A DNA stretch of 61,109 nt from Pseudomonadota bacterium. Its GTDB lineage: Bacteria > Pseudomonadota > Gammaproteobacteria > UBA12402. A program made the translations under genes and the position numbers. A model generated the notes under the pieces. That model was not told the origin of the DNA and did not search any database. It saw only the letters and a list, made by a program, of their open reading frames with translations. Each line of letters opens with the position of its first letter. The first letter of the stretch is position 1. Below are positions 49,953-57,871 of this stretch, piece after piece. The stretch covers positions 1-61,109 of the forward strand of contig JBBTCW010000003.1 of NCBI GenBank assembly GCA_038043025.1. The letters are read 5' to 3'.

Positions 49953-50002
49953 GAATTTTGTTCTCCTTGTTAGTGATTTGAATTGTGATAATATACAATC
50001 TT

Positions 50003-50344
50003 ATGCACGAGCTTTCAATCATACAAGATATTTTAAAAACTATTGAGCAAACGGCGATCAAGAACGATCTAAAAAAAATCAATAAAGCGACATTGGAAAT
50101 TGGTCAAATGCGGCAATGCATTCCCGAATTTTTGCAGTTTGCGTTTGAAACGTTAACGAAAGATACGATTGCCTCAGGGGCTCAATTAATTATTCGAGAA
50201 ATTCCAGTCAAAGCGCTTTGTTTACAGTGTAAAAAAGAATTTCAAGTGATCGATGATAGTTATGGCTGCCCGCACTGTGATAGTATCGAGTTGGATATTT
50301 TAAGCGGAAAAGAAATTGTTTTAAGCAGTATTGACGGAGACTAA
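50003..50344 (+). CDS. hypA: Hydrogenase nickel metallochaperone HypA
   Basis: MHELS N-terminus, CLQC and CPHC pairs, and SGKE; start at ATG 50003. Confidence 0.96.
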   Translation: MHELSIIQDILKTIEQTAIKNDLKKINKATLEIGQMRQCIPEFLQFAFETLTKDTIASGAQLIIREIPVKALCLQCKKEFQVIDDSYGCPHCDSIELDILSGKEIVLSSIDGD

Positions 50345-50347
50345 CGC

Positions 50348-51013
50348 ATGGAAATTTTAATCAAACAAGATTTGTTAATCGCCAATGAAGAAAAAGCAAA
50401 GGATATACGCGCGCGATTAAAACAACATAATATTTGCATGTTAAATTTAATTGGCTCGCCCGGCGCAGGCAAGACGTCGCTTTTGGAAAAAACGTTTTCA
50501 ACATTGGGTCAACGTTGTCGCATGGCGGTGATTGAAGGCGATGTTGAAACAGATGAGGATGCTAAGCGATTAGCACAATATCCCGTGTTGATTGCGATGG
50601 TGAATACGCACGGCGCCTGTCATTTAGAATCCGTGAGCGTTGAAAAGGCGTTGAATGCATTTGATTTGAAAAAGTTAGATTTAATTTTTGTGGAGAACAT
50701 TGGCAATTTGGTTTGTCCGGCGGAATTTGATGTGGGCGAAAATCTCAAAATTGCCGTGTTAAGCGTGTGCGAAGGAGATGATAAAGTGATAAAGTATCCC
50801 TTGTTGTTTCGCGAAGCCAGCATTGTTGTGCTGCACAAAATTGATCTCTTGCCGTATCTTAATTTTAATCGCGCGCGTTTTTATGCGGATCTTAAAAAGG
50901 TGAATCCAAAAGCGAAAGTATTAGAAGTATCATGTACGACGGAAGAAGGGGTTGATGCGTGGTGCAAGATGATATTGTCATTCACCAAAATAAATGTTAT
51001 ATCTATCTCATAG
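50348..51013 (+). CDS. hypB: Hydrogenase nickel-incorporation GTPase HypB
   Basis: SPGAGKT, VIEGD, GACHL, ENIGNLVCPAEFD.GE, EGDDK..KYP and KIDL. Confidence 0.96.
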   Translation: MEILIKQDLLIANEEKAKDIRARLKQHNICMLNLIGSPGAGKTSLLEKTFSTLGQRCRMAVIEGDVETDEDAKRLAQYPVLIAMVNTHGACHLESVSVEKALNAFDLKKLDLIFVENIGNLVCPAEFDVGENLKIAVLSVCEGDDKVIKYPLLFREASIVVLHKIDLLPYLNFNRARFYADLKKVNPKAKVLEVSCTTEEGVDAWCKMILSFTKINVISIS

Positions 51014-51035
51014 AGATAAAACACAATGGATTGCC

Positions 51036-52067
51036 ATGTTACTCAAAACCACAAAAGCGGCTCTTTTAAAAGGGATTGATCAAGTTTTATTAACTTATCA
51101 AGTGGCGGCGCTAACAAAACAAGTCGATCGAGTTTTATACGACTATGTGAAGACGAGTCAAGACATCTTTTGGGGTTGTCGACCGACTGTTTTGCCGCCC
51201 AAGAAATTTTTCTTTCCACCGCATGAAACGCTTCTCGATTATACTGCCGATGGACAAGTGAGCGCGCCGATTGAATCTAAACCGCTCGTTTTATTGGGTA
51301 TTCATCCCTGTGATTTGCGTGGCATTCAAATACTCGATGAAGCGTTTGCCGATTTGCATGGCGACCCCAATTATTTAGAGCGACGCGAGAAAGCGATCAT
51401 CATTGGCTTGGATTGTCATCAAAACTGTGATCAAGATTCATTTTGTTATAAGGTTGGCGCAAATTATGCAAAAACGGGTTATGACATCATGTTATATCCA
51501 CTGAAAGACGATCAGTATTTGGTTGAGATTGCAACGGATCGCGGCAGCGTGTTTGCCGAACAATTCTTACGGGCGATTAAAGGAGAAGAAACAGAATTAG
51601 AGGAATATCAACAAACGAAAGCAAAAGCGTTTGAATCATTAAAGCCATTTAAAGATTTAGAAAAATTTCCCGAACTTTTTCAAGAAAATACGCATCATCC
51701 GATTTGGGCACATGAAGGTGCGCGCTGCTTGAGTTGCGGTTCTTGTGTTATGGTTTGCCCCACCTGTTATTGTTTTAATGTTACCGATGATTGGGCGCTG
51801 AATATGCAGACCGGGAAGCGCGAGCGACATTGGGATGGATGTATGCTGCATGATTTTACGACGGTGGCCACGGGGGAAAACTTTCGTCCGACGGCGACCG
51901 CGCGATTACATCATCGCATCAATCGAAAATTTAATTATTTGATGAAGAAGCATGGGCAAGCGGTTTGTGTGGGTTGTGGGCGCTGTGTGCGCGCGTGTTT
52001 GGCAGAGATTAGTCCCAAAACAATTGCAGAAGCGATCAATGGTGAGGATGAAAAAGAATGGAATTAG
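51036..52067 (+). CDS. Group 3b [NiFe]-hydrogenase (sulfhydrogenase-type) beta subunit, 4Fe-4S dicluster
   Basis: PPKKFFFPP.E, IHPCD, CLSCGSC.MVCPTCYCF, R.WD.C and CVGCGRC.RAC; start uncertain. Confidence 0.88.
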   Translation: MLLKTTKAALLKGIDQVLLTYQVAALTKQVDRVLYDYVKTSQDIFWGCRPTVLPPKKFFFPPHETLLDYTADGQVSAPIESKPLVLLGIHPCDLRGIQILDEAFADLHGDPNYLERREKAIIIGLDCHQNCDQDSFCYKVGANYAKTGYDIMLYPLKDDQYLVEIATDRGSVFAEQFLRAIKGEETELEEYQQTKAKAFESLKPFKDLEKFPELFQENTHHPIWAHEGARCLSCGSCVMVCPTCYCFNVTDDWALNMQTGKRERHWDGCMLHDFTTVATGENFRPTATARLHHRINRKFNYLMKKHGQAVCVGCGRCVRACLAEISPKTIAEAINGEDEKEWN

Positions 52068-52918
52068 CATTAGCTCAATCCAATACGAAACTGTATTTGC
52101 CGGAGCCTGCAAGAATCGTTAAGGTGAAAAGTTTTACCGAGCACGAAAAATTTTTTCAGATTGAATTGTTGCGCAAAGGAAGTTTGGGGCATGATCCAGG
52201 ACAATTTGTTGAAGTATCTATTTTGGGAATAGGCGAGGCGCCCATTTCGATTGCATCGCCGCCCGATTCTGGTAATCGTTTTGATTTATGCGCACGTGCC
52301 GTGGGCGATGTCACTAAAAAGTTATTTACGTTAAAGAAAAATGATTTGATTTATATTCGCGGGCCTTTTGGCCATGGCTTTGATGATAAAATTTTTCAGC
52401 GCATGCAAGGAAAACATTTATTATTTATTGCCGGCGGTATTGGGTATTTTCCGTTGCGGTCGCTCATCAATCAAACCATTCCAATGGCAAAAAACTATAA
52501 AAAAATCTCGATTTTATACGGTTGCAAAACCTCGCAAGATCGTATGTTTCCGGATGAGCTTAAAAAAATTCATGACTTGTCAGTGGGAAGCAATGTTGAA
52601 TTGCTCGAAACGTTAGATCATCCCGAACCAGGTTGGACGGGCAATGTCGGTGTGATTACGACGTTAATTCCTAAAGTTGATTTTGTTCCTGCCGAAACCA
52701 TTGCTATTATTGTTGGGCCACCGATCATGTATAAATTTGTTTTGACATCATTGATGGATAAACATATGCCGAAAGAAAATATTTATATGTCGTTAGAGCG
52801 TCGCATGAAATGCGGCGTGGGTAAATGTGGCCATTGTCAGATGGCAGGCGTTTATGTGTGTCAGAAAGGGCCGGTGTTTAATTATGCAGATGTCAAAGAT
52901 AATGAGGAGTTATTTTGA
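52058..52918 (+). CDS. Group 3b hydrogenase gamma subunit (FAD/NAD(P)-binding, 2Fe-2S)
   Basis: PGQF, GEAPISI.S, RGPFG.GF, AGGIG..PLRS, GPPIM and SLERRMKCGVGKCGHC...C..GPVF. Confidence 0.9.
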   Translation: MELALAQSNTKLYLPEPARIVKVKSFTEHEKFFQIELLRKGSLGHDPGQFVEVSILGIGEAPISIASPPDSGNRFDLCARAVGDVTKKLFTLKKNDLIYIRGPFGHGFDDKIFQRMQGKHLLFIAGGIGYFPLRSLINQTIPMAKNYKKISILYGCKTSQDRMFPDELKKIHDLSVGSNVELLETLDHPEPGWTGNVGVITTLIPKVDFVPAETIAIIVGPPIMYKFVLTSLMDKHMPKENIYMSLERRMKCGVGKCGHCQMAGVYVCQKGPVFNYADVKDNEELF

Positions 52919-53679
52919 TGTCTAAAAAACCTAAAGTTGCATTTTTTGATTTTACCTGTTGCGAAGGTTGTCAGCTATGTGCCGTTGATTTAACGCCGGA
53001 ACAATTGTTTGATTTGTTGGCATTAGTTGACATCGTTGAATTTCGTGAAGTGATGACCGATAAAGCAGAAAGTTATGATATTGCTTTTATTGAAGGCTCG
53101 ATCTCGCGAAAACCCGATGAAGAAAGGATTAAAGATATTCGAGCGCGATCAAAATTATTGGTGACATTGGGCGCTTGTTCGACCATTGCCGGCGTGAATG
53201 CGCTACGAAATTTTTATCCCGATGATGAGTTGTTGCGTTTGGTTTATCCGGGACATCCAGAAATTAATCATACTACGATTGCGAGAGGAGTGAGTGAAGT
53301 TGTAAAAGTCGATGCGATGATTCCCGGTTGCCCGATTGATACAGATGAATTTTTGCGCGTAGTGAGAGATCTATTGTTGGGCAAAAAGCCTGAAATACCG
53401 ACCTATCCAGTATGTGTCGAATGTAAGATGAATGAAAACACTTGTGTATATGAAAAAGGGATATATTGTTTAGGTCCCGTTATTCGCGCAGGCTGTCATG
53501 CAATTTGCCCGAGCAATGGCGGGTATTGCTTTGGTTGCCGCGGTGTTATTCCTAAAGCCAATATTGAATCAATGAAAGAAGTTTTGCAGAAACATAATTT
53601 AAGTGCGGCAGCGGCGTTGGATAAATTTAAATTATTTCTCGAGCGGGACAAGGAGATTTTTCCAGATGACAAAAATTGA
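52918..53679 (+). CDS. Group 3b hydrogenase small (delta) subunit
   Basis: TCCEGCQL, EGSI, LGAC...G, IPGCP, VC.EC, CLGPV.RAGC.A.CP and C.GCRG. Confidence 0.92.
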   Translation: MSKKPKVAFFDFTCCEGCQLCAVDLTPEQLFDLLALVDIVEFREVMTDKAESYDIAFIEGSISRKPDEERIKDIRARSKLLVTLGACSTIAGVNALRNFYPDDELLRLVYPGHPEINHTTIARGVSEVVKVDAMIPGCPIDTDEFLRVVRDLLLGKKPEIPTYPVCVECKMNENTCVYEKGIYCLGPVIRAGCHAICPSNGGYCFGCRGVIPKANIESMKEVLQKHNLSAAAALDKFKLFLERDKEIFPDDKN

Positions 53680-54946
53680 TGTGCATCACGTTACACGTGT
53701 TGAGGGACACGGTAATATTAGCGTCGATCTTGAGAAAGGAAAGATTTTAAAGTGCCAACTCGCCATTGTCGAGGCGCCACGTTTTTTTGAAGCGATGTTG
53801 CGTGGTCGGCATTATGATGAAACGATTATTGTGTCGAGTCGCATTTGCGGTATTTGTTCGGTCGGGCATCAGTTGGCCGCATTGCGTGCGATTGAAGATG
53901 CGTTTAATGTTAAGATTTCTGAACAAGAAAAATGTTTGCGTCGCTTATTAAATTGTGGTGAGTTTTTTGAAAGTCATGTATTACATATTTATTTTTTAGC
54001 GATGCCGGATTTTAAAGGTGTTAAATCAATTTTTCCGCTCGCGAAAACGAATAAAGATGTGGTGGTGCATGCGTTAAACTTAAAACGATTTGGACATTAC
54101 ATTGGTGGTGTTATTGGCGGTCGCTTAATTCATTCAACGGCGACGGATGTTAAGGCGATGTCTAAATTGCCGACAAAAAAAGAATTAGAAGAAGTACTAA
54201 AACGCTTGCACGAAGCAAAAGAAGAGTTAAAACAAGGCGTTTCTATTTTAAAAGGCTTAAAGTTTCCAGCATTTGAGCGAGAAACAGAATATATTTCTCT
54301 GCAGAAAAAAGGAGTTTATGCCTCATTAGAAGGTAACATTTATTCCAGTGATGTCGGTGAAATTCCGTATAAAAATTATCGTGATGTCGTGAATGAATAT
54401 ATAGTGGATTATGCGACCGCCAAGCGCGCAAAACATAATCGCGCGTCATACATGGTGGGCGCCTTAGCGCGGTTTAATAACAATGGACAATGGTTATCGG
54501 ATGACGCCAAACAAATTGCACAAGATTTAGGATTGAAGTCGCCGTGTTATAATGCTTATTTAAATACCGTTGCGCAGTTTGTTGAGCTTGTGCATGTGGC
54601 GGATGATTCTATTGCAGCGGCAAAGAGTTTGTTAAACATGGATTTGAAATTAGAAGAACGTTCCCTCACCGTTACTCCAGGCTCGGGTGTGGGTGCTGTT
54701 GAAGTGCCGCGCGGGACGTTATATCACGAATATGTTTTTAATGAGAAAGGGATTGTTACAGATGCAAATTGTGTTATCCCAACGGGTCAGAACGTCAATA
54801 ATATTGAAGAAGATTTTAAAGCATTATTGCCAAGCATTTCTAAAAAATCCCAGAAAGAGATTACGCTTTTATTAGAAATGCTCGTGCGTGCTTACGATCC
54901 TTGTATTTCTTGTTCGGCGCATATGTTGGATGTTGAGTTTGTGTAA
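53666..54946 (+). CDS. Group 3b [NiFe]-hydrogenase large (alpha) subunit
   Basis: TRVEGHG, EAPRFFE, L1 SRICGICS.GH, EVPRG.L.H, L2 RAYDPCISCSAH plus a 7-aa cleavable tail; start after AAGGAG. Confidence 0.95.
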   Translation: MTKIDVHHVTRVEGHGNISVDLEKGKILKCQLAIVEAPRFFEAMLRGRHYDETIIVSSRICGICSVGHQLAALRAIEDAFNVKISEQEKCLRRLLNCGEFFESHVLHIYFLAMPDFKGVKSIFPLAKTNKDVVVHALNLKRFGHYIGGVIGGRLIHSTATDVKAMSKLPTKKELEEVLKRLHEAKEELKQGVSILKGLKFPAFERETEYISLQKKGVYASLEGNIYSSDVGEIPYKNYRDVVNEYIVDYATAKRAKHNRASYMVGALARFNNNGQWLSDDAKQIAQDLGLKSPCYNAYLNTVAQFVELVHVADDSIAAAKSLLNMDLKLEERSLTVTPGSGVGAVEVPRGTLYHEYVFNEKGIVTDANCVIPTGQNVNNIEEDFKALLPSISKKSQKEITLLLEMLVRAYDPCISCSAHMLDVEFV

Positions 54947-54948
54947 AT

Positions 54949-55398
54949 ATGTCCCACACATTAATTCTTTCCATCGGAAATTTATTACGCCATGACGATG
55001 GTGTTGGTCCGACCGTATTAAAATTATTATCTGAATATCCAAAGCCGAACGTTGATTATGTGAATGGCGGCACGGACGGATTGGCGCTGATTGATTTAAT
55101 TTCGTCATATAAAAAAGTGACCATTATTGACGCGGTGAACATGCAAATGCCGCCGGGAACGATAAAGCGATTCAAGCCAAAAGACGCCAAGATTCATGTA
55201 AAATCGGATGTGCTTTCGACACATGGTTTTGGTTTAGTCGAAGTGTTAGACTTGTTGGTGCAATTAGGAGTTGAGACAGAAATAGATATTATTGGCATTC
55301 AGCCAAAAGATATTTCGTTAGGCGAAGGGTTAAGCGATTGCATACGAGATTGTCTCAACGACGTCATCACCCTCATCGCAGCTCCAGCTCAGAGCTGA
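54949..55398 (+). CDS. Hydrogenase maturation endopeptidase
   Basis: IGNLLR.DDGVG, GGT.G, IIDAV, STHG.GL, GIQP and GLS; the last codons and stop come from the palindromic repeat. Confidence 0.92.
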   Translation: MSHTLILSIGNLLRHDDGVGPTVLKLLSEYPKPNVDYVNGGTDGLALIDLISSYKKVTIIDAVNMQMPPGTIKRFKPKDAKIHVKSDVLSTHGFGLVEVLDLLVQLGVETEIDIIGIQPKDISLGEGLSDCIRDCLNDVITLIAAPAQS

Positions 55399-55504
55399 CG
55401 AAATCGGGTGGCGGGAGAGGCTTGCTATGACTCTCTTGCAGCAGCTCAGAGCTGCGTGGATTAAAATTTTGTATGATATTGCTTACATCGCAGCTCAGAG
55501 CTGC
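55378..55504. repeat. Three-copy palindrome array (spacings 57 and 49 bp)
   Basis: Copies at 55384, 55441 and 55490, plus an extra half-site at 55378; homologous to 58425-58545. Confidence 0.9.
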
Positions 55505-55520: not shown

Positions 55521-56828
55521 ATGTGCTATGCGATTCCAGGACAATTAATCGAAATTCGCAAAAATGGCGGCGGGGTGGTCGATTACTTTGGTGAAAAACG
55601 TAATATCTTATTAGACCTCAGCGATGCCGCAGTGGGTGATTATGTTTATGCGCAGGGCGGTATTTTAGTTCGCAAAATTCCCACGGCAGAAGCCTTAGAA
55701 ATTTTGTCTCTCTGGAAAGATAAATTTTTTGAATTAAAAAAAATGGATGCGCGGTTGTCCCATTTTTCAGAAAGCGACTTGCCGGCCAATACATTACAAA
55801 TTTTACAAAAAGTAAATTTAAAAAAACCGTTATCGCGACAAGACATGCAAGCACTTTTAAAATTGGAAGACCCTCGCGAGTTAAACATATTATATGAATT
55901 AGCGAATCACATCCGGCATCGAGAACATGATAATGCAAGCTGCATTCACGGCATTATCGAGTTTTCAAATTATTGTTGTGAAAATTGTTATTATTGCGGT
56001 ATTCGTTCTGATCGTGTGATCACGCGTTATCGCATGAGCGTCGATGAAATTATTGCTGTTGCGCAACATGCCGTTGATGAATATGGCTTTAAAGCATTAG
56101 TTTTACAGTCAGGTGAAGATCTATGGTATGACAAAAATAGATTAGTAAAAATCGTTCGTGCATTGCGTCAAATGGGCATTTTGGTTTTTTTAAGCATCGG
56201 CATGCGCGACAAACAATTGTATCAAACTTTATATCAAGCCGGTGCGCGTGCCGCGTTATTGCGGTTTGAAACTTCTAATGAAAATATTTTTAAGCGATTG
56301 CGCCCAGCTACTTCCTTGAATGAACGCATAGAATTAATTCAACAGCTAAAATCGATGGGTTATATTATTGCGACGGGGTTTATTGCGGGTTTGCCTGATG
56401 AAACGCCAGAAGATATTGTGAATAACATATTGTTGACGAAATCATTAGATCCCGACATGTATTCATTGGGACCATTCATTCCGACACTGGATACACCGTT
56501 GGCTGCGCACAGTAAATTATCGATGGATGCGGTTTTAAAGATTATTGCATTGACGCGTTTTGTCGATCCAAATTCAAATATTTTGGTGACGACGGCATTA
56601 GAAACATTGGATGCGAGCGCTAAAAAAGCGGCATTATTAGCCGGCGCTAATTCGATGATGATCAATGTGACGCCGATGCAATATCGTGCGCTTTATCAAA
56701 TTTATGATAATCGCGCGGATCGCAATCAAATGGTGAAAGTGGGTATACAAAGTGCGTTAAATTTATTATATTCATTGGGACGTGCGCCGACGGATATAGG
56801 AACATTAAAAGGAGAAATTTATGCCTAA
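55521..56828 (+). CDS. Fusion of a HypC/HupF domain and a HydE-type radical SAM enzyme
   Basis: N-terminal MCYAIPG...VDYFG..R...VGDYV...G......EA.E.L (HypC). Then IIEFSNYC.ENCYYCGIR, RYRM, VLQSGED, LLRFET, GPFIP..DTPL, TTALETL, AGAN and TP..YR..YQIY (HydE-like). One continuous frame. Confidence 0.85.
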   Translation: MCYAIPGQLIEIRKNGGGVVDYFGEKRNILLDLSDAAVGDYVYAQGGILVRKIPTAEALEILSLWKDKFFELKKMDARLSHFSESDLPANTLQILQKVNLKKPLSRQDMQALLKLEDPRELNILYELANHIRHREHDNASCIHGIIEFSNYCCENCYYCGIRSDRVITRYRMSVDEIIAVAQHAVDEYGFKALVLQSGEDLWYDKNRLVKIVRALRQMGILVFLSIGMRDKQLYQTLYQAGARAALLRFETSNENIFKRLRPATSLNERIELIQQLKSMGYIIATGFIAGLPDETPEDIVNNILLTKSLDPDMYSLGPFIPTLDTPLAAHSKLSMDAVLKIIALTRFVDPNSNILVTTALETLDASAKKAALLAGANSMMINVTPMQYRALYQIYDNRADRNQMVKVGIQSALNLLYSLGRAPTDIGTLKGEIYA

Positions 56829-57285
56829 AATATTTTCGATCAAAGAAATTTTACAATTCGCGGTTGAAAAGGAACATGAAAGCCAAGAATTATATCAAGC
56901 GCTTGCGGCGCAAGTCGGCAACCCAGATGCCAAATCCTTGTTCAAAGAATTTGTGATACAAGAGAAAAAACACGAAGATCTATACAAAAACATGTTAGCA
57001 AATATTGACGAATATCAGCATATTAATGATCTCGACGAGTATATGTCTTATATGCATGAGTTAATTAACACAAGCCATCCAGAAAGTGGAACGTCATCCG
57101 TGGCGCATATGAAATGTTTATCCGATATATTAGATTATGCAGTTTTACGCGAAAAAGAATCGGTATTGTTTTATGTCGGGTTGCGTGATTATGTCTCCGC
57201 GCCGTATCAAGCGCAGGTTGACGCCATCATTAAAGAAGAAGTGCAACATATCGTGCAGTTGTCGGGGCTCAAGAAAGCGATTTAA
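56821..57285 (+). CDS. Ferritin-like / rubrerythrin-family diiron protein
   Basis: A...E......Y...EKKH and A..RE..S..FY...EE..H repeated helix pairs; overlaps the fusion gene stop. Confidence 0.85.
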   Translation: MPKIFSIKEILQFAVEKEHESQELYQALAAQVGNPDAKSLFKEFVIQEKKHEDLYKNMLANIDEYQHINDLDEYMSYMHELINTSHPESGTSSVAHMKCLSDILDYAVLREKESVLFYVGLRDYVSAPYQAQVDAIIKEEVQHIVQLSGLKKAI

Positions 57286-57331: not shown

Positions 57332-57871
57332 TTATGTGGTTGGTTTAAGACTGAGAACTGTGACATCAGCGGGATCAGACGGGGGCCGACCGGAAGCTCT
57401 TGCCAGGTACTGCTCTACGGCCGCTGCTAGTACTTCAATTTCTGCTTTTTGTTTTTCCAATTCTGCTGCTTGTTTGTCCAGTTTTTTTTCCAATTCAGCT
57501 GTTCGCTTTTTCTCTTCTGCTGTTTGTTTTTCCCGTTCTGCTGCTTGTTTTTTCCATTCTGCTGATTGTTTTTCCCATTCTGCTGCTCGCTTTTCCCGTT
57601 CTGCTGCTTGTTTTTCCCGTTCTTTTTCCCATTCTGCTGTTTTTTTTTCCCATTCTGCTGCTCGTTTTTCCCGTTCTGCTGCTCGCTTTTCCCGTTCTGC
57701 TGCTTGTTTTTCCATAGCATCAATTTCTGCTATCTCTGGACGGGGAGCCAGGTTTGCTTCTATTTTTGCCAGAAGCTCTTCGCTGGTATGGGCTTTAGCA
57801 TCGATCATATCGCGGGACATATCACGCATTTCTCTATCGGGATCGGGTCGTTTCTGCTTTCCTTTGAACAT
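57332..57871 (-). CDS. Hypothetical coiled-coil protein with 7-aa tandem repeats
   Basis: EK(Q/R/K)(A/T/S)AE(R/W/L) heptads; this frame has unique flanks and gives a plausible protein. Confidence 0.6.
   Translation of the reverse strand: MFKGKQKRPDPDREMRDMSRDMIDAKAHTSEELLAKIEANLAPRPEIAEIDAMEKQAAEREKRAAEREKRAAEWEKKTAEWEKEREKQAAEREKRAAEWEKQSAEWKKQAAEREKQTAEEKKRTAELEKKLDKQAAELEKQKAEIEVLAAAVEQYLARASGRPPSDPADVTVLSLKPTT
57460..57712. repeat. Degenerate 21-bp tandem repeat
   Basis: Units such as TTTTTCCCGTTCTGCTGCTCG / TTTTTCCCATTCTGCTGCTTG, about 10-11 copies. Confidence 0.85.

What the first reader, a model, noticed from the sequence alone, without database searches (positions are those of the whole stretch)
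55521..56828. HypC-HydE fusion: an [FeFe]-type radical SAM maturase joined to the [NiFe] cofactor carrier
Seen: one uninterrupted ORF whose first ~65 aa are HypC-like (MCYAIPG, Cys2 kept; the usual VLVHVG reads VYAQGG, so the His equivalent to E. coli HypC His51 is Gln). The remainder carries a CxxxCxxC motif, VLQSGED, GPFIP..DTPL and the C-terminal TP..YR..YxxY of HydE. It lies directly behind a group 3b [NiFe]-hydrogenase operon. Known: HypC works with HypD to scaffold and deliver Fe(CN)2CO, while HydE processes the HydG-made Fe(CO)2(CN)-cysteinate synthon for [FeFe] H-clusters; the two pathways are considered independent. Inference: this may be a hybrid maturation route in which a radical SAM enzyme builds or edits an Fe-CO/CN unit and passes it through the fused HypC to the [NiFe] large subunit. 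I do not know a description of this fusion.
Basis: partly seen in the sequence, partly recalled or inferred. Interest (0 to 1): 0.9.

Follow-up and report, generated by a model that had tools for sequence, protein, structure and literature searches.

The report
HypC-HydE fusion maturase for [NiFe] hydrogenase
A gene that joins the iron-carrier HypC of [NiFe] hydrogenases to the radical-SAM enzyme HydE of [FeFe] hydrogenases is real and widespread, and with HydG it appears to replace the standard HypCDEF machinery that builds the iron-CO/CN centre.

Summary
Window 55521-56828 (+) is one open 435-aa frame. Residues 1-65 score as HypC. Residues about 92-427 score as HydE and model onto T. maritima HydE at 1.4 A.

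It is not an assembly artefact. The same architecture occurs in about 300 species-level genomes of Gammaproteobacteria, Omnitrophota, Patescibacteria, DPANN archaea and others. Contigs from independent runs cross the domain junction without indels.

The own genome (96.5% complete) has a group 3b [NiFe] hydrogenase operon with hypA, hypB and a protease, and a true HydG on another contig. HypD, HypE, HypF, HydA and HydF were not found.

In 50 fusion-bearing genomes, HypD and HypE each occur in 2, HydG in 45, HydA in 13 and HydF in 11. The 10 genomes with both HydA and HydF also carry a separate canonical HydE. HydG lies in the fetched locus in 46 of 80, and two genomes fuse all three parts.

The fusion clade keeps the SAM cluster motif and Met224/Met291. 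It replaces Arg54, Thr134 and Arg155 and gains an invariant Cys and His.

Best reading: a tyrosine-fed HydG to HydE to HypC route supplies Fe-CO/CN to [NiFe] hydrogenases. One preprint mentions the fusion in passing. No biochemistry exists.

The parts
49985..50344 (+). hypA, nickel metallochaperone
   Evidence: NCBIfam TIGR00100 scores 105.8 bits against a cut-off of 88.1.
50348..51013 (+). hypB-type GTPase (CobW/HypB/UreG domain)
   Evidence: Pfam PF02492 scores 75.3 bits. It sits between hypA and the hydrogenase genes.
50994..52067 (+). hydrogenase beta subunit (4Fe-4S dicluster), group 3b type
   Evidence: Pfam Fer4_22 scores 109.2 bits.
52058..52918 (+). hydrogenase gamma subunit (FAD/NAD(P)-binding, Fe-S)
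   Evidence: Pfam matches NAD_binding_1, DHODB_Fe-S_bind and FAD_binding_6.
52915..53679 (+). [NiFe] hydrogenase small (delta) subunit
   Evidence: Pfam Oxidored_q6 scores 75.6 bits.
53666..54946 (+). [NiFe] hydrogenase large (alpha) subunit precursor, with RICGIC and DPCISCSAH motifs and a C-terminal extension
   Evidence: The best NCBIfam hits are sulfhydrogenase alpha ShyA (254.6 bits) and HydA (243.2 bits), below their cut-offs. The motifs are read from the translation.
54949..55398 (+). hydrogenase maturation endopeptidase
   Evidence: NCBIfam TIGR00072 scores 121.8 bits against a cut-off of 47.45.
55441..55504 (.). two copies of a REP-like palindrome (GCAGCTCAGAGCTGC) in the spacer before the fusion gene
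   Evidence: There are 34 exact copies in the genome and 6 in the window. Depth spikes and contig ends occur here. It is not part of the maturase itself.
55521..55715 (+). HypC domain (residues 1-65): Cys2 kept, Gln45 in place of the conserved His
   Evidence: Pfam PF01455 scores 48.2 bits against 28.5. Cys2 is invariant and Gln45 is at 90% or more in 109 sequences.
55716..55793 (+). conserved linker helix (WKxxFFELKKxD)
   Evidence: The AF2 model has a helix at residues 55-79. W65, F69, L72 and D76 are conserved.
55794..56801 (+). HydE-type radical SAM domain (residues 92-427): C152/C156/C159 cluster motif, Met313/Met380, clade-specific Cys141/His143
   Evidence: NCBIfam TIGR03956 scores 259.1 bits. 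The PDB sequence match to TmHydE has E 3.5e-69. Foldseek gives TM 0.92 and rmsd 1.4 A.
55521..56828 (+). whole HypC-HydE fusion gene (435 aa plus stop)
   Evidence: The AF2 model has mean pLDDT 90.3 and pTM 0.90.
56821..57285 (+). rubrerythrin/ferritin-like gene that overlaps the fusion's stop codon; a possible accessory
   Evidence: Pfam Rubrerythrin scores 33.5 bits. A homologue lies downstream of the fusion in 10 of 80 loci.

Best explanation
The gene encodes a dedicated [NiFe]-hydrogenase maturase. With a stand-alone HydG (own genome, contig C40:6160-7545, outside the window) it takes over the job that HypC, HypD, HypE and HypF do elsewhere.

Proposed course:
1. HydG splits tyrosine and builds the cysteinate-Fe(CO)2(CN) synthon (complex-B), as in [FeFe] maturation.
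2. The HydE domain binds that synthon and uses the 5'-deoxyadenosyl radical to strip off the cysteine backbone. This leaves a mononuclear S-Fe(CO)2(CN) unit on Met313/Met380.
3. In canonical HydE the residues that hold the CN ligands of the dimerising product are Arg54, Thr134 and Arg155. Here they are replaced, and an invariant Cys141/His143 pair appears. The unit is therefore probably not dimerised for HydF. It is held as a single iron and passed to Cys2 of the rigidly attached HypC domain.
4. The HypC domain docks on the large-subunit precursor and inserts the iron.
5. HypA/HypB add nickel, and the protease trims the C-terminus.

Shown here: the architecture, its conservation, the gene linkage, the phyletic pattern and the residue changes. 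Inferred: every chemical step, including how one CO is exchanged for a second CN, if it is.
For: Domains and fold. The sequence match to TmHydE is and the match to solved HypC. The AF2 model has pLDDT 90.3 and pTM 0.90. The top Foldseek hit is TmHydE at TM 0.92 and rmsd 1.4 A.

Own genome (96.46% complete). The only HypC match is this gene. HypD and HypE were not found. HypF gave only partial acylphosphatase- or YrdC-type hits. HydA was not found and no HydF match reached the cut-off. HydG scores 523 bits against a cut-off of 312 and has both CX3CX2C and the C-terminal CX2CX22C.

Spread. All 120 listed protein clusters carry PF01455 plus PF04055. In species genomes, 300 of 315 candidate stretches encode a relative; 80 were kept, and nearly all cover residues 1-427.

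Linkage in the 80 loci. HydG lies in the locus in 46, a large subunit in 28 and a protease in 26. The full order beta-gamma-delta-alpha-protease-fusion-HydG occurs in L070, L079, L081, L086 and L087. HypC-HydE-HydG triple fusions of 909 and 943 aa follow hydrogenase operons in L109 and L110. The fusion also follows a group 4 (Ech-type) [NiFe] operon with hypA and hypB in L054.

Fifty fusion-bearing genomes (50 of the 80 loci). HypD 2/50. HypE 2/50 over cut-off, in the same two genomes. HypF 1/50 over cut-off plus one partial match, again in those two. HydG 45/50. HydA 13/50. HydF 11/50. PF00374 large subunit 49/50. A second, stand-alone HydE (292-370 bits) occurs in exactly the 10 genomes that have both HydA and HydF.

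Sixty-one relatives with quality figures. The fusion is in 7, with HypD in 0/7 and HydG in 5/7. Stand-alone HypC is in 19, with HypD in 19/19 and HydG in 0/19. Neither form of HypC is in 35, with HypD in 0/35 and HydG in 0/35.

Tree. All 46 fusion rows fall in one clade (SH-aLRT 100) inside HydE. The 10 co-resident stand-alone HydE lie outside it. HydG rows act as the outgroup.

Residues (203 fusion against 121 canonical domains). Kept: the cluster cysteines, E250, M313 (Tm M224), M380 (Tm M291), L246 and V194. Changed: R54 to H143 (100%), T134 to F223 (95%), R155 to A/G244 (99%), plus the new C141 (100%). PMC11826987 (passages read) names R54, T134, R155 and T269 as contacts of the CN ligands of the dimerising Fe(I) units, and M224 and M291 as their carriers.

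Co-fold of the HypC part (residues 1-90) with the large subunit. The verdict was weak support: score 0.52, best of 3 controls 0.01. The mark was reached by 58 of 80 solved complexes and 2 of 110 mismatched pairs. At 0.60 or under it was reached by only 7 of those 80 and by both mismatches. The runs agree in at least 77% of contacts and the partner's pLDDT is at least 67.
Against: No experiment exists, so all of this is comparative genomics and modelling.

HydG was not found in 5 of 50 fusion genomes (G001, G002, G004, G007; G048 has only a ThiH-like hit). It was not found in 2 of 7 fusion-bearing relatives (G051 at 94% and G054 at 93% complete). G051 is in the window's own genus.

The HydG product carries 2 CO and 1 CN, whereas the known [NiFe] site has 1 CO and 2 CN. 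No enzyme for the exchange is identified.

The conserved His of HypC is Gln here, and the NCBIfam HypC model scores 36.6, below its cut-off of 48. No HypD-like scaffold or other recurrent unknown gene was found near the fusion.

G058 has a 69%-identical large subunit together with stand-alone HypC and HypD and no fusion (87% complete). The hydrogenase type therefore does not require the fusion.

G107 is a closed genome with an intact 3b operon, yet no HypC, HypD, fusion or HydG was found in it. Missing Hyp genes alone do not prove replacement.

Thirteen of 50 genomes do have an [FeFe] hydrogenase, and in several the one HydG lies between both systems. Genomes reached through loci carry no completeness figures. 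The co-fold pass is weak.
Confidence: 0.72

Rival explanations
1. The system supplies only part of the ligand set, for example CO, whose anaerobic source in [NiFe] maturation is unsettled. Alternatively it delivers an Fe(CO)2(CN) unit unchanged. In that case either unknown proteins finish the job or these hydrogenases carry a non-standard ligand set.
For: The HydG product has 2 CO and 1 CN (PMC10114646, passages read). No CO-to-CN exchange enzyme is evident near the fusion. Gln replaces the HypC His that is conserved elsewhere.
Against: HypE and HypF, the known cyanide source, were found in only 2 of 50 fusion genomes and not in the own genome. Cyanide must therefore also come from HydG or from an unknown route. 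No recurrent unknown gene accompanies the fusion.
Confidence: 0.15
2. The protein is an ordinary [FeFe] HydE that happens to carry a HypC-like tail and serves an H-cluster, perhaps of an unrecognised [FeFe] hydrogenase. NCBI's annotation implies this reading.
For: It passes the HydE equivalog cut-off at 259.1 against 254.6. HydG is its partner in both readings. Thirteen of 50 genomes have HydA, sometimes within a few kb.
Against: No HydA or HydF was found in the own genome. HydA was not found in 37 of 50 fusion genomes and HydF in 39 of 50. All 10 genomes with HydA plus HydF keep a separate, higher-scoring canonical HydE outside the fusion clade. The product-handling residues R54, T134 and R155 are replaced. 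Twenty of 53 fusion-type copies fall below the HydE cut-off. The gene sits in [NiFe] operons.
Confidence: 0.04
3. The fusion and HydG make some other iron-carbonyl or sulfur-containing cofactor unrelated to the neighbouring hydrogenase. The hydrogenase is then matured by an unknown route or is inactive.
For: G107 shows that an intact 3b operon can exist with none of HypC, HypD, HydG or the fusion found. Five of 50 fusion genomes lack a detected HydG.
Against: The N-terminal domain is a HypC with the essential Cys2. The gene lies directly after the large subunit and protease, or after hypA and hypB, in many phyla. Some genomes have one fusion copy per hydrogenase operon (G002, G040, G047). PF00374 matches occur in 49 of 50 fusion genomes.
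Confidence: 0.06
4. The fusion is an assembly or gene-calling artefact: two genes joined by a lost stop codon or a frameshift.
For: None was found.
Against: The same in-frame architecture appears in 120 of 120 listed clusters and in about 300 genome stretches. Independent contigs span the junction without indels. The linker is conserved.
Confidence: 0.01

Closest known systems
HypC/HybG/HupF chaperones of the HypCDEF pathway
   Same: It has the N-terminal Met-Cys, an OB-type beta domain followed by a helix, a Pfam PF01455 match and a position inside [NiFe] hydrogenase operons. Some genomes have one copy per hydrogenase operon, much as E. coli has both HypC and HybG (the E. coli comparison is recalled).
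   Different: It is fused to a 340-residue radical SAM enzyme. The conserved His is Gln. It scores below the NCBIfam HypC cut-off. No HypD partner was found in the genome.
HydE of the HydEFG [FeFe] H-cluster pathway (T. maritima HydE, PDB 3CIX and 7O1O)
   Same: It has the same fold (TM 0.92), the CX3CX2C motif, Met224/Met291 and the hydrophobic cavity residues. HydG is its gene neighbour.
   Different: It forms a separate clade. Arg54, Thr134 and Arg155 are replaced, and Cys141/His143 are gained. No conserved auxiliary-cluster cysteines are present. It occurs without HydF or HydA in most genomes. It carries an N-terminal HypC.
HydG
   Same: The partner enzyme here is a standard HydG, with 523 bits and both cluster motifs. 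Fusion-linked and [FeFe]-linked copies are not separated in the tree.
   Different: It is used, by inference, to feed a [NiFe] site. In two genomes it is fused to HypC-HydE.
HmdB/Hcg proteins of [Fe]-hydrogenase and HypX (aerobic CO synthesis)
   Same: These are other cases where the CO-bearing iron centre of a hydrogenase is built by a non-HypCDEF enzyme. HmdB is a BioB/HydE-like radical SAM protein.
   Different: The HmdB model scores only 67.3 bits against a cut-off of 320.9. HypX is unrelated in sequence and works alongside HypCDEF rather than replacing it (recalled).
'HydE-HypC fusion' noted in Ca. Centrionella anaeramoebae (bioRxiv 10.64898/2026.04.11.717937)
   Same: The same operon type in a Legionellales symbiont: protease, HypA, HypB and a HydE-HypC fusion (passages read).
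   Different: That text lists it as part of a 'full maturation machinery'. It contains no occurrence of HydG or HypD, and the passages read propose no mechanism.

Membership tests
HypC/HupF (PF01455, TIGR00074) | The Pfam family model is matched above its gathering score | tested here: met
   48.2 bits against 28.5, covering residues 1-65 of the 65-position profile.
HypC/HupF (PF01455, TIGR00074) | The NCBIfam subfamily model is matched above its cut-off | tested here: not met
   36.6 bits against a cut-off of 48.
HypC/HupF (PF01455, TIGR00074) | An N-terminal cysteine directly follows the start Met (the iron ligand) | tested here: met
   The protein starts MCYAIPG. C2 is invariant in 109 sequences, and 198 of 203 distinct members start MC.
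HypC/HupF (PF01455, TIGR00074) | A conserved His sits in the GDxVLVHxG motif (E. coli His51; the number is recalled) | tested here: not met
   Gln45 aligns with the His of solved HypC. Gln was found in all 181 of 203 members that matched a strict motif pattern. Most of the other 22 vary at flanking positions of the motif; under a looser pattern 5 of them show Gln, 1 Tyr and 1 Thr, and 15 still do not match.
HypC/HupF (PF01455, TIGR00074) | It works with HypD | tested here: not met
   HypD was not found in the own genome. It occurs in 2 of 50 fusion genomes and in 0 of 7 fusion-bearing relatives.
HypC/HupF (PF01455, TIGR00074) | It binds the hydrogenase large-subunit precursor | tested here: inconclusive
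   The co-fold gave weak support: score 0.52, best control 0.01. The mark was reached by 58 of 80 solved complexes and 2 of 110 mismatched pairs; at 0.60 or under, by only 7 of those 80 and by both mismatches.
HydE (TIGR03956) | The equivalog model is matched above its cut-off | tested here: met
   259.1 bits against 254.6, which is marginal. Across the family, 33 of 53 fusion-type copies pass and 20 do not. All 10 stand-alone HydE score 292-370 bits.
HydE (TIGR03956) | It has the radical SAM CX3CX2C motif and the (beta-alpha)8 HydE fold | tested here: met
   C152, C156 and C159 are invariant. Foldseek to 3CIX gives TM 0.92 and rmsd 1.4 A.
HydE (TIGR03956) | Met224 and Met291, which carry the Fe(I)(CO)2(CN)S intermediate, are present | tested here: met
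   M313 is kept in 100% and M380 in 98% of fusion domains. Their roles are taken from PMC10114646 and PMC11826987.
HydE (TIGR03956) | Arg54, Thr134 and Arg155, which contact the CN ligands of the dimer product, are present | tested here: not met
   The fusion clade has His (100%), Phe (95%) and Ala/Gly (99%). Canonical HydE has Arg 90%, Thr 86% and Arg 84%.
HydE (TIGR03956) | It co-occurs with HydA, HydF and HydG | tested here: not met
   In the own genome only HydG was found. In 50 genomes HydA is in 13, HydF in 11 and HydG in 45.
HydE (TIGR03956) | It converts complex-B by radical chemistry | not testable with these tools
   This needs enzyme assays with EPR or FTIR.
PylB / BioB / HmdB | The family model is matched above its cut-off | tested here: not met
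   PylB scores 155.3 against 348.2, BioB 112.2 against 225 and HmdB 67.3 against 320.9.

The most novel reading that the evidence does not exclude
A second, tyrosine-fed radical-SAM pathway (HydG to HypC-HydE) builds the iron centre of [NiFe] hydrogenases without HypD, HypE, HypF or carbamoyl phosphate. Because its synthon carries two CO and one CN, these group 3b and group 4 enzymes of Patescibacteria, DPANN archaea, Omnitrophota and Legionellales-like symbionts may hold a ligand set unlike every characterised [NiFe] hydrogenase. Alternatively, the new Cys141/His143 site may be where CO is exchanged for CN.
Probability: 0.2. Interest if true: 0.95.

Novelty: new variant of a known kind. Interest (0 to 1): 0.88.

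Why it matters
HypCDEF is treated as the conserved route to the Fe(CN)2CO group of [NiFe] hydrogenases (PMC9431212, passages read). The [NiFe] and [FeFe] maturation systems are taught as separate.

This family suggests that nature has wired the [FeFe] ligand factory into [NiFe] maturation, in hundreds of mostly small-genome, uncultivated lineages. If true, four things follow:
- It would explain how these organisms make hydrogenases without hypCDEF.
- It would give a defined anaerobic source of the CO ligand, namely tyrosine.
- It would offer a compact two-gene module for heterologous [NiFe] hydrogenase production.
- It would correct a widespread annotation: these proteins are labelled '[FeFe] hydrogenase maturase HydE' or 'biotin synthase', which wrongly implies [FeFe] hydrogenase capacity.

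The pathway can be tested directly with standard tools, such as a hyp-deleted E. coli, FTIR and labelled tyrosine.

Tried and rejected
- **RNA evidence.** No RNA holder was listed for the stretch, so nothing can be said about expression.
- **Rohac et al. 2021 (PMC8300475).** The paper is not held. The complex-B contact residues other than M224 and M291 (R159, T268/T269) are therefore recalled, not checked. The identities of R54, T134 and R155 were confirmed from PMC11826987 instead.
- **Outgroup.** I looked for a BioB paralogue in the own genome. The only other hit (contig C73) is a 551-aa B12-type radical SAM protein, so it was not used. HydG rows that entered the tree by accident served as the outgroup.
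- **First classification.** My first pass labelled 7 loci 'stand-alone'. They are fusions with a deletion of about 36 residues at the start of the HydE part.
- **Extra scaffold gene.** Clustering of 933 ORFs around 80 fusions found no recurrent unknown gene. It found only a DsbD_2 membrane protein (13 loci), a Rex-like regulator (11 loci), a rubrerythrin-like gene and housekeeping genes.
- **Literature.** The eight searches that ran found only the one passing mention. Subscription journals and supplements are not covered.
- **Rejected readings.** PylB, BioB and HmdB identity is rejected on scores. An artefact is rejected.
Full report
**The object.** Window 55521-56828 (+) is a single open frame of 435 codons beginning MCYAIPG. 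Pfam places HupF_HypC on residues 1-65 (48.2 bits, cut-off 28.5), Radical_SAM on 146-301 and BATS on 320-399. NCBIfam's best model is the HydE equivalog TIGR03956 at 259.1 bits, just over its cut-off of 254.6. PylB (155.3), BioB (112.2) and HmdB (67.3) fall far below theirs, and the NCBIfam HypC model (36.6) is below its cut-off of 48.

Against solved structures, residues 92-424 align to T. maritima HydE almost without gaps (E 3.5e-69). Residues 1-67 align to T. kodakarensis HypC. An AlphaFold2 model built from 109 family members has mean pLDDT 90.3 and pTM 0.90. That pTM speaks for a fixed packing of the two domains, joined by a long helix at residues 55-79. The top Foldseek hit is TmHydE at TM 0.92 and rmsd 1.4 A over 337 columns; PylB and BioB come next.

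**Surroundings.** Directly upstream on the same strand lie hypA, hypB, the beta, gamma, delta and alpha subunits of a group 3b-type [NiFe] hydrogenase, and a maturation protease. The large subunit has the usual RICGIC and DPCISCSAH motifs and a C-terminal extension. A rubrerythrin-like gene overlaps the fusion's stop codon. The 120-base spacer before the fusion holds two copies of a REP-like palindrome.

**Artefact check.** All 120 best protein clusters (58-88% identity) carry PF01455 together with PF04055. A scan of species-representative genomes with a family alignment found 315 stretches. Of these, 300 encode a relative, and the best 80 nearly all cover residues 1-427. They come from Gammaproteobacteria and Coxiellaceae MAGs, Omnitrophota, Patescibacteria, Elusimicrobiota, Margulisiibacteriota, Planctomycetota, Nitrospirota, and DPANN and Altiarchaeota archaea.

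Contigs of the probable source run and of runs from two other studies cross the domain junction with no differences and no indels. Cys2, the linker (W65, F69, L72, D76), the SAM-cluster cysteines and many barrel residues are invariant or nearly so.

**The own genome.** G000 is 1.62 Mb in 79 contigs, 96.46% complete and 41.7% GC.
- The only HypC match is this gene.
- HypD and HypE gave no match.
- HypF gave only short acylphosphatase-, YrdC- or TsaD-type hits.
- The [FeFe] hydrogenase catalytic domain gave no match.
- The HydF model hit only general GTPases below its cut-off.
- A full HydG lies on contig C40 (6160-7545), with 523 bits against a cut-off of 312. It scores below the ThiH cut-off (308.8 against 380). 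It has both CX3CX2C and the C-terminal CX2CX22C that sets HydG apart from ThiH.
- Its neighbours are an AAA_14/DUF4143 ATPase gene and nadABC.

**Gene linkage elsewhere.** I searched the ORFs of the 80 loci with the window's proteins. HydG lies in the same locus in 46, mostly right after the fusion. A large subunit lies there in 28 and a protease in 26. Five loci show the whole order beta-gamma-delta-alpha-protease-fusion-HydG. Many loci are short contigs, so these counts are lower bounds.

In two Nitrospirota-labelled genomes, HypC, HydE and HydG are one ORF of 909 or 943 aa behind the hydrogenase and protease. In L054 the fusion follows hypA, hypB and a DsbD_2 membrane protein, behind a group 4 (Ech-type) hydrogenase. 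That large subunit ends at DPCISCTER and has no protease. The fusion is therefore not tied to group 3b. Some genomes have one fusion copy per hydrogenase operon (G002, G040, G047).

**Genome-level pattern, set 1.** I searched the genomes of 50 of the 80 loci. I chose long contigs and a spread of taxa and left 30 out. No completeness figures are given for these genomes.

| Family | Genomes with a match over cut-off |
|---|---|
| HypD | 2 of 50 (G019, G050) |
| HypE | 2 of 50 (the same two) |
| HypF | 1 of 50, plus a partial hit in G050 |
| HydG | 45 of 50 |
| HydA | 13 of 50 |
| HydF | 11 of 50 |
| PF00374 large subunit | 49 of 50 |

Some PF00374 matches cover only the N-terminal 69 positions, which group 4 large subunits and NuoD also give.

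With the HydE model, every genome shows the fusion-type copy (frames of 393-943 aa, 226-293 bits; 33 of 53 copies are over the cut-off). Exactly the 10 genomes that have both HydA and HydF show a second, stand-alone HydE (frames of 315-387 aa, 292-370 bits). G040 even has two HydG genes. One sits with HydF and the canonical HydE, and the other with the fusion and a large subunit.

**Genome-level pattern, set 2.** This set is 61 relatives including G000, with quality figures.

| Group | Genomes | HypD | HydG |
|---|---|---|---|
| Fusion | 7 (all in the window's family) | 0 of 7 | 5 of 7 |
| Stand-alone HypC | 19 | 19 of 19 | 0 of 19 |
| Neither form of HypC | 35 | 0 of 35 | 0 of 35 |

The two fusion genomes without HydG are G051 (same genus, 94% complete) and G054 (93%). 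Kin are not independent, so these are descriptive counts and not statistics.

Five of the seven fusion genomes have a large subunit 68-100% identical to the window's. The other two (G056, G062) have the group 4 type.

**Phylogeny.** The tree has 133 rows: 46 of 223 fusion domains, 35 sampled stand-alone proteins, 10 co-resident stand-alone HydE, and 42 HydG that entered by my own loose filter and serve as the outgroup. It was built with IQ-TREE in quick mode under LG+G4. The HydE family is one group (SH-aLRT 100). Within it all 46 fusion rows form one clade (100), together with three rows without a HypC part: P0131, which is a fragment, and P0149 and P0193, whose context is unknown. The 10 co-resident HydE lie outside the clade, among ordinary HydE. 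HydG copies linked to fusions and to [FeFe] systems are intermixed, so HydG itself does not look specialised.

**What changed in the enzyme.** I compared 203 distinct fusion domains with 121 canonical ones, leaving out P0131, P0149, P0193 and rows scoring under 150 bits.
- Both sets keep the cluster cysteines, E250, Q196, M313 and M380 (TmHydE M224 and M291), L246 and V194 (Tm L157 and V105) and T357/T358.
- The canonical set conserves Arg at Tm 54 (90%), Thr at 134 (86%) and Arg at 155 (84%).
- The fusion clade has His143 (100%), Phe223 (95%) and Ala/Gly244 (99%) there. It also has a new invariant Cys141 (Tm His52) and Arg243 (91%).

The numbering was mapped by hand from the alignment. [quoted passage not shown] PMC10114646 (passages read) places this site (S3) near the barrel exit towards HydF. 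The substrate end and the radical machinery thus look intact, while the product end is rebuilt with two potential metal ligands. No conserved auxiliary-cluster cysteines are present.

**Mechanism proposed.** The chemistry is inferred throughout.
1. HydG makes complex-B from tyrosine, cysteine and iron.
2. The HydE domain removes the cysteine backbone.
3. The mononuclear Fe(CO)2(CN)S unit is not dimerised. It is captured at Cys141/His143 and passed to Cys2 of the attached HypC domain.
4. The HypC domain inserts it into the large-subunit precursor.
5. HypA/HypB and the protease finish maturation.

A co-fold of the HypC part with the large subunit gave weak support only. The score was 0.52 and the best of 3 controls was 0.01. 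The mark was reached by 58 of 80 solved complexes and 2 of 110 mismatched pairs, but at 0.60 or under by only 7 of those 80 and by both mismatches. The runs agree in at least 77% of contacts, and the partner's pLDDT is at least 67. The open point is stoichiometry: the synthon has two CO and one CN, and the known [NiFe] site has one CO and two CN.

**Against, and limits.**
- Nothing here is experimental.
- HydG was not found in 5 of 50 and 2 of 7 fusion genomes.
- G058 pairs a 69%-identical large subunit with HypC and HypD and has no fusion (87% complete).
- G107, a closed genome, has an intact 3b operon and a weak protease match, but no HypC, HypD, fusion or HydG was found. Lack of hyp genes is therefore not by itself proof of replacement.
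- In Omnitrophota the single HydG lies between a [FeFe] set and the [NiFe]/fusion set.

**Literature.** The eight full-text searches that ran found one mention. [quoted passage not shown] It contains no occurrence of HydG or HypD, and the passages read give no mechanism. The Cell 2024 survey of archaeal [FeFe] hydrogenases and HydEFG does not mention HypC (passages read). Subscription journals and supplementary tables were not searchable, so an earlier description cannot be excluded.

**Verdict.** It remains unproven biochemically. It is best described as a new variant that joins two known maturation systems. It has wide taxonomic reach and can be tested directly.

Noticed in passing
window 55441-55504; also 9242, 36657, 58425, 60336: A REP-like palindrome (GCAGCTCAGAGCTGC) has 34 exact copies in the genome, often in pairs about 50-57 bases apart. 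Public contigs break there and depth rises about five-fold.
   Followed up: partly
window 56821-57285 (+): A rubrerythrin/ferritin-like gene overlaps the fusion's stop codon. A homologue follows the fusion in 10 of 80 loci, mostly gammaproteobacterial. It may give oxygen or iron protection for the maturase.
   Followed up: partly
window 57332-57871 (-): A 179-aa ORF is made largely of AAEREKRAAEWEK-type repeats, and mirror ORFs lie on the other strand. It was not examined.
   Followed up: no
L109:6691-9417 (+); L110:826-3654 (-): HypC-HydE-HydG triple fusions of 909 and 943 aa lie behind a 3b hydrogenase and protease in two Nitrospirota-labelled MAGs. P0125 (906 aa) and P0135 (881 aa) may be further examples.
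   Followed up: partly
L054:3388-4050 (+); L021:9281-9997 (+): A DsbD_2-family membrane protein lies directly upstream of the fusion in 13 of 80 loci. Its role is unknown, and metal transport is only a guess.
   Followed up: partly
L111 (G107:C1:2388000-2407000): A closed 3.4-Mb genome of the same class has an intact group 3b operon. Its large subunit carries all four Cys motifs and there is a weak protease match. No HypC, HypD, fusion or HydG was found. It is an orphan hydrogenase with no known iron-centre machinery.
   Followed up: partly
L086, L087, L100, L078/L108, L066, L089 (HydG genes): One HydG clade lacks the CX2CX22C spacing and reads CTAGYRCGRTGxC...C instead. It includes both HydG copies of G040, so the variant is not specific to the fusion.
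   Followed up: partly
L075, L080, L085, L090, L095, L103, L104: Short-form fusions in Omnitrophota and Planctomycetota lack about 36 residues (query 99-135) of the N-terminal helices of the HydE part but keep the HypC domain.
   Followed up: partly
G000:C40:4816-6147 (L015): In the own genome an AAA_14/DUF4143 ATPase gene lies 12 bases before hydG. A convergent nadA-nadB-nadC set follows it. The ATPase family is common near mobile DNA, so hydG may have been relocated.
   Followed up: no
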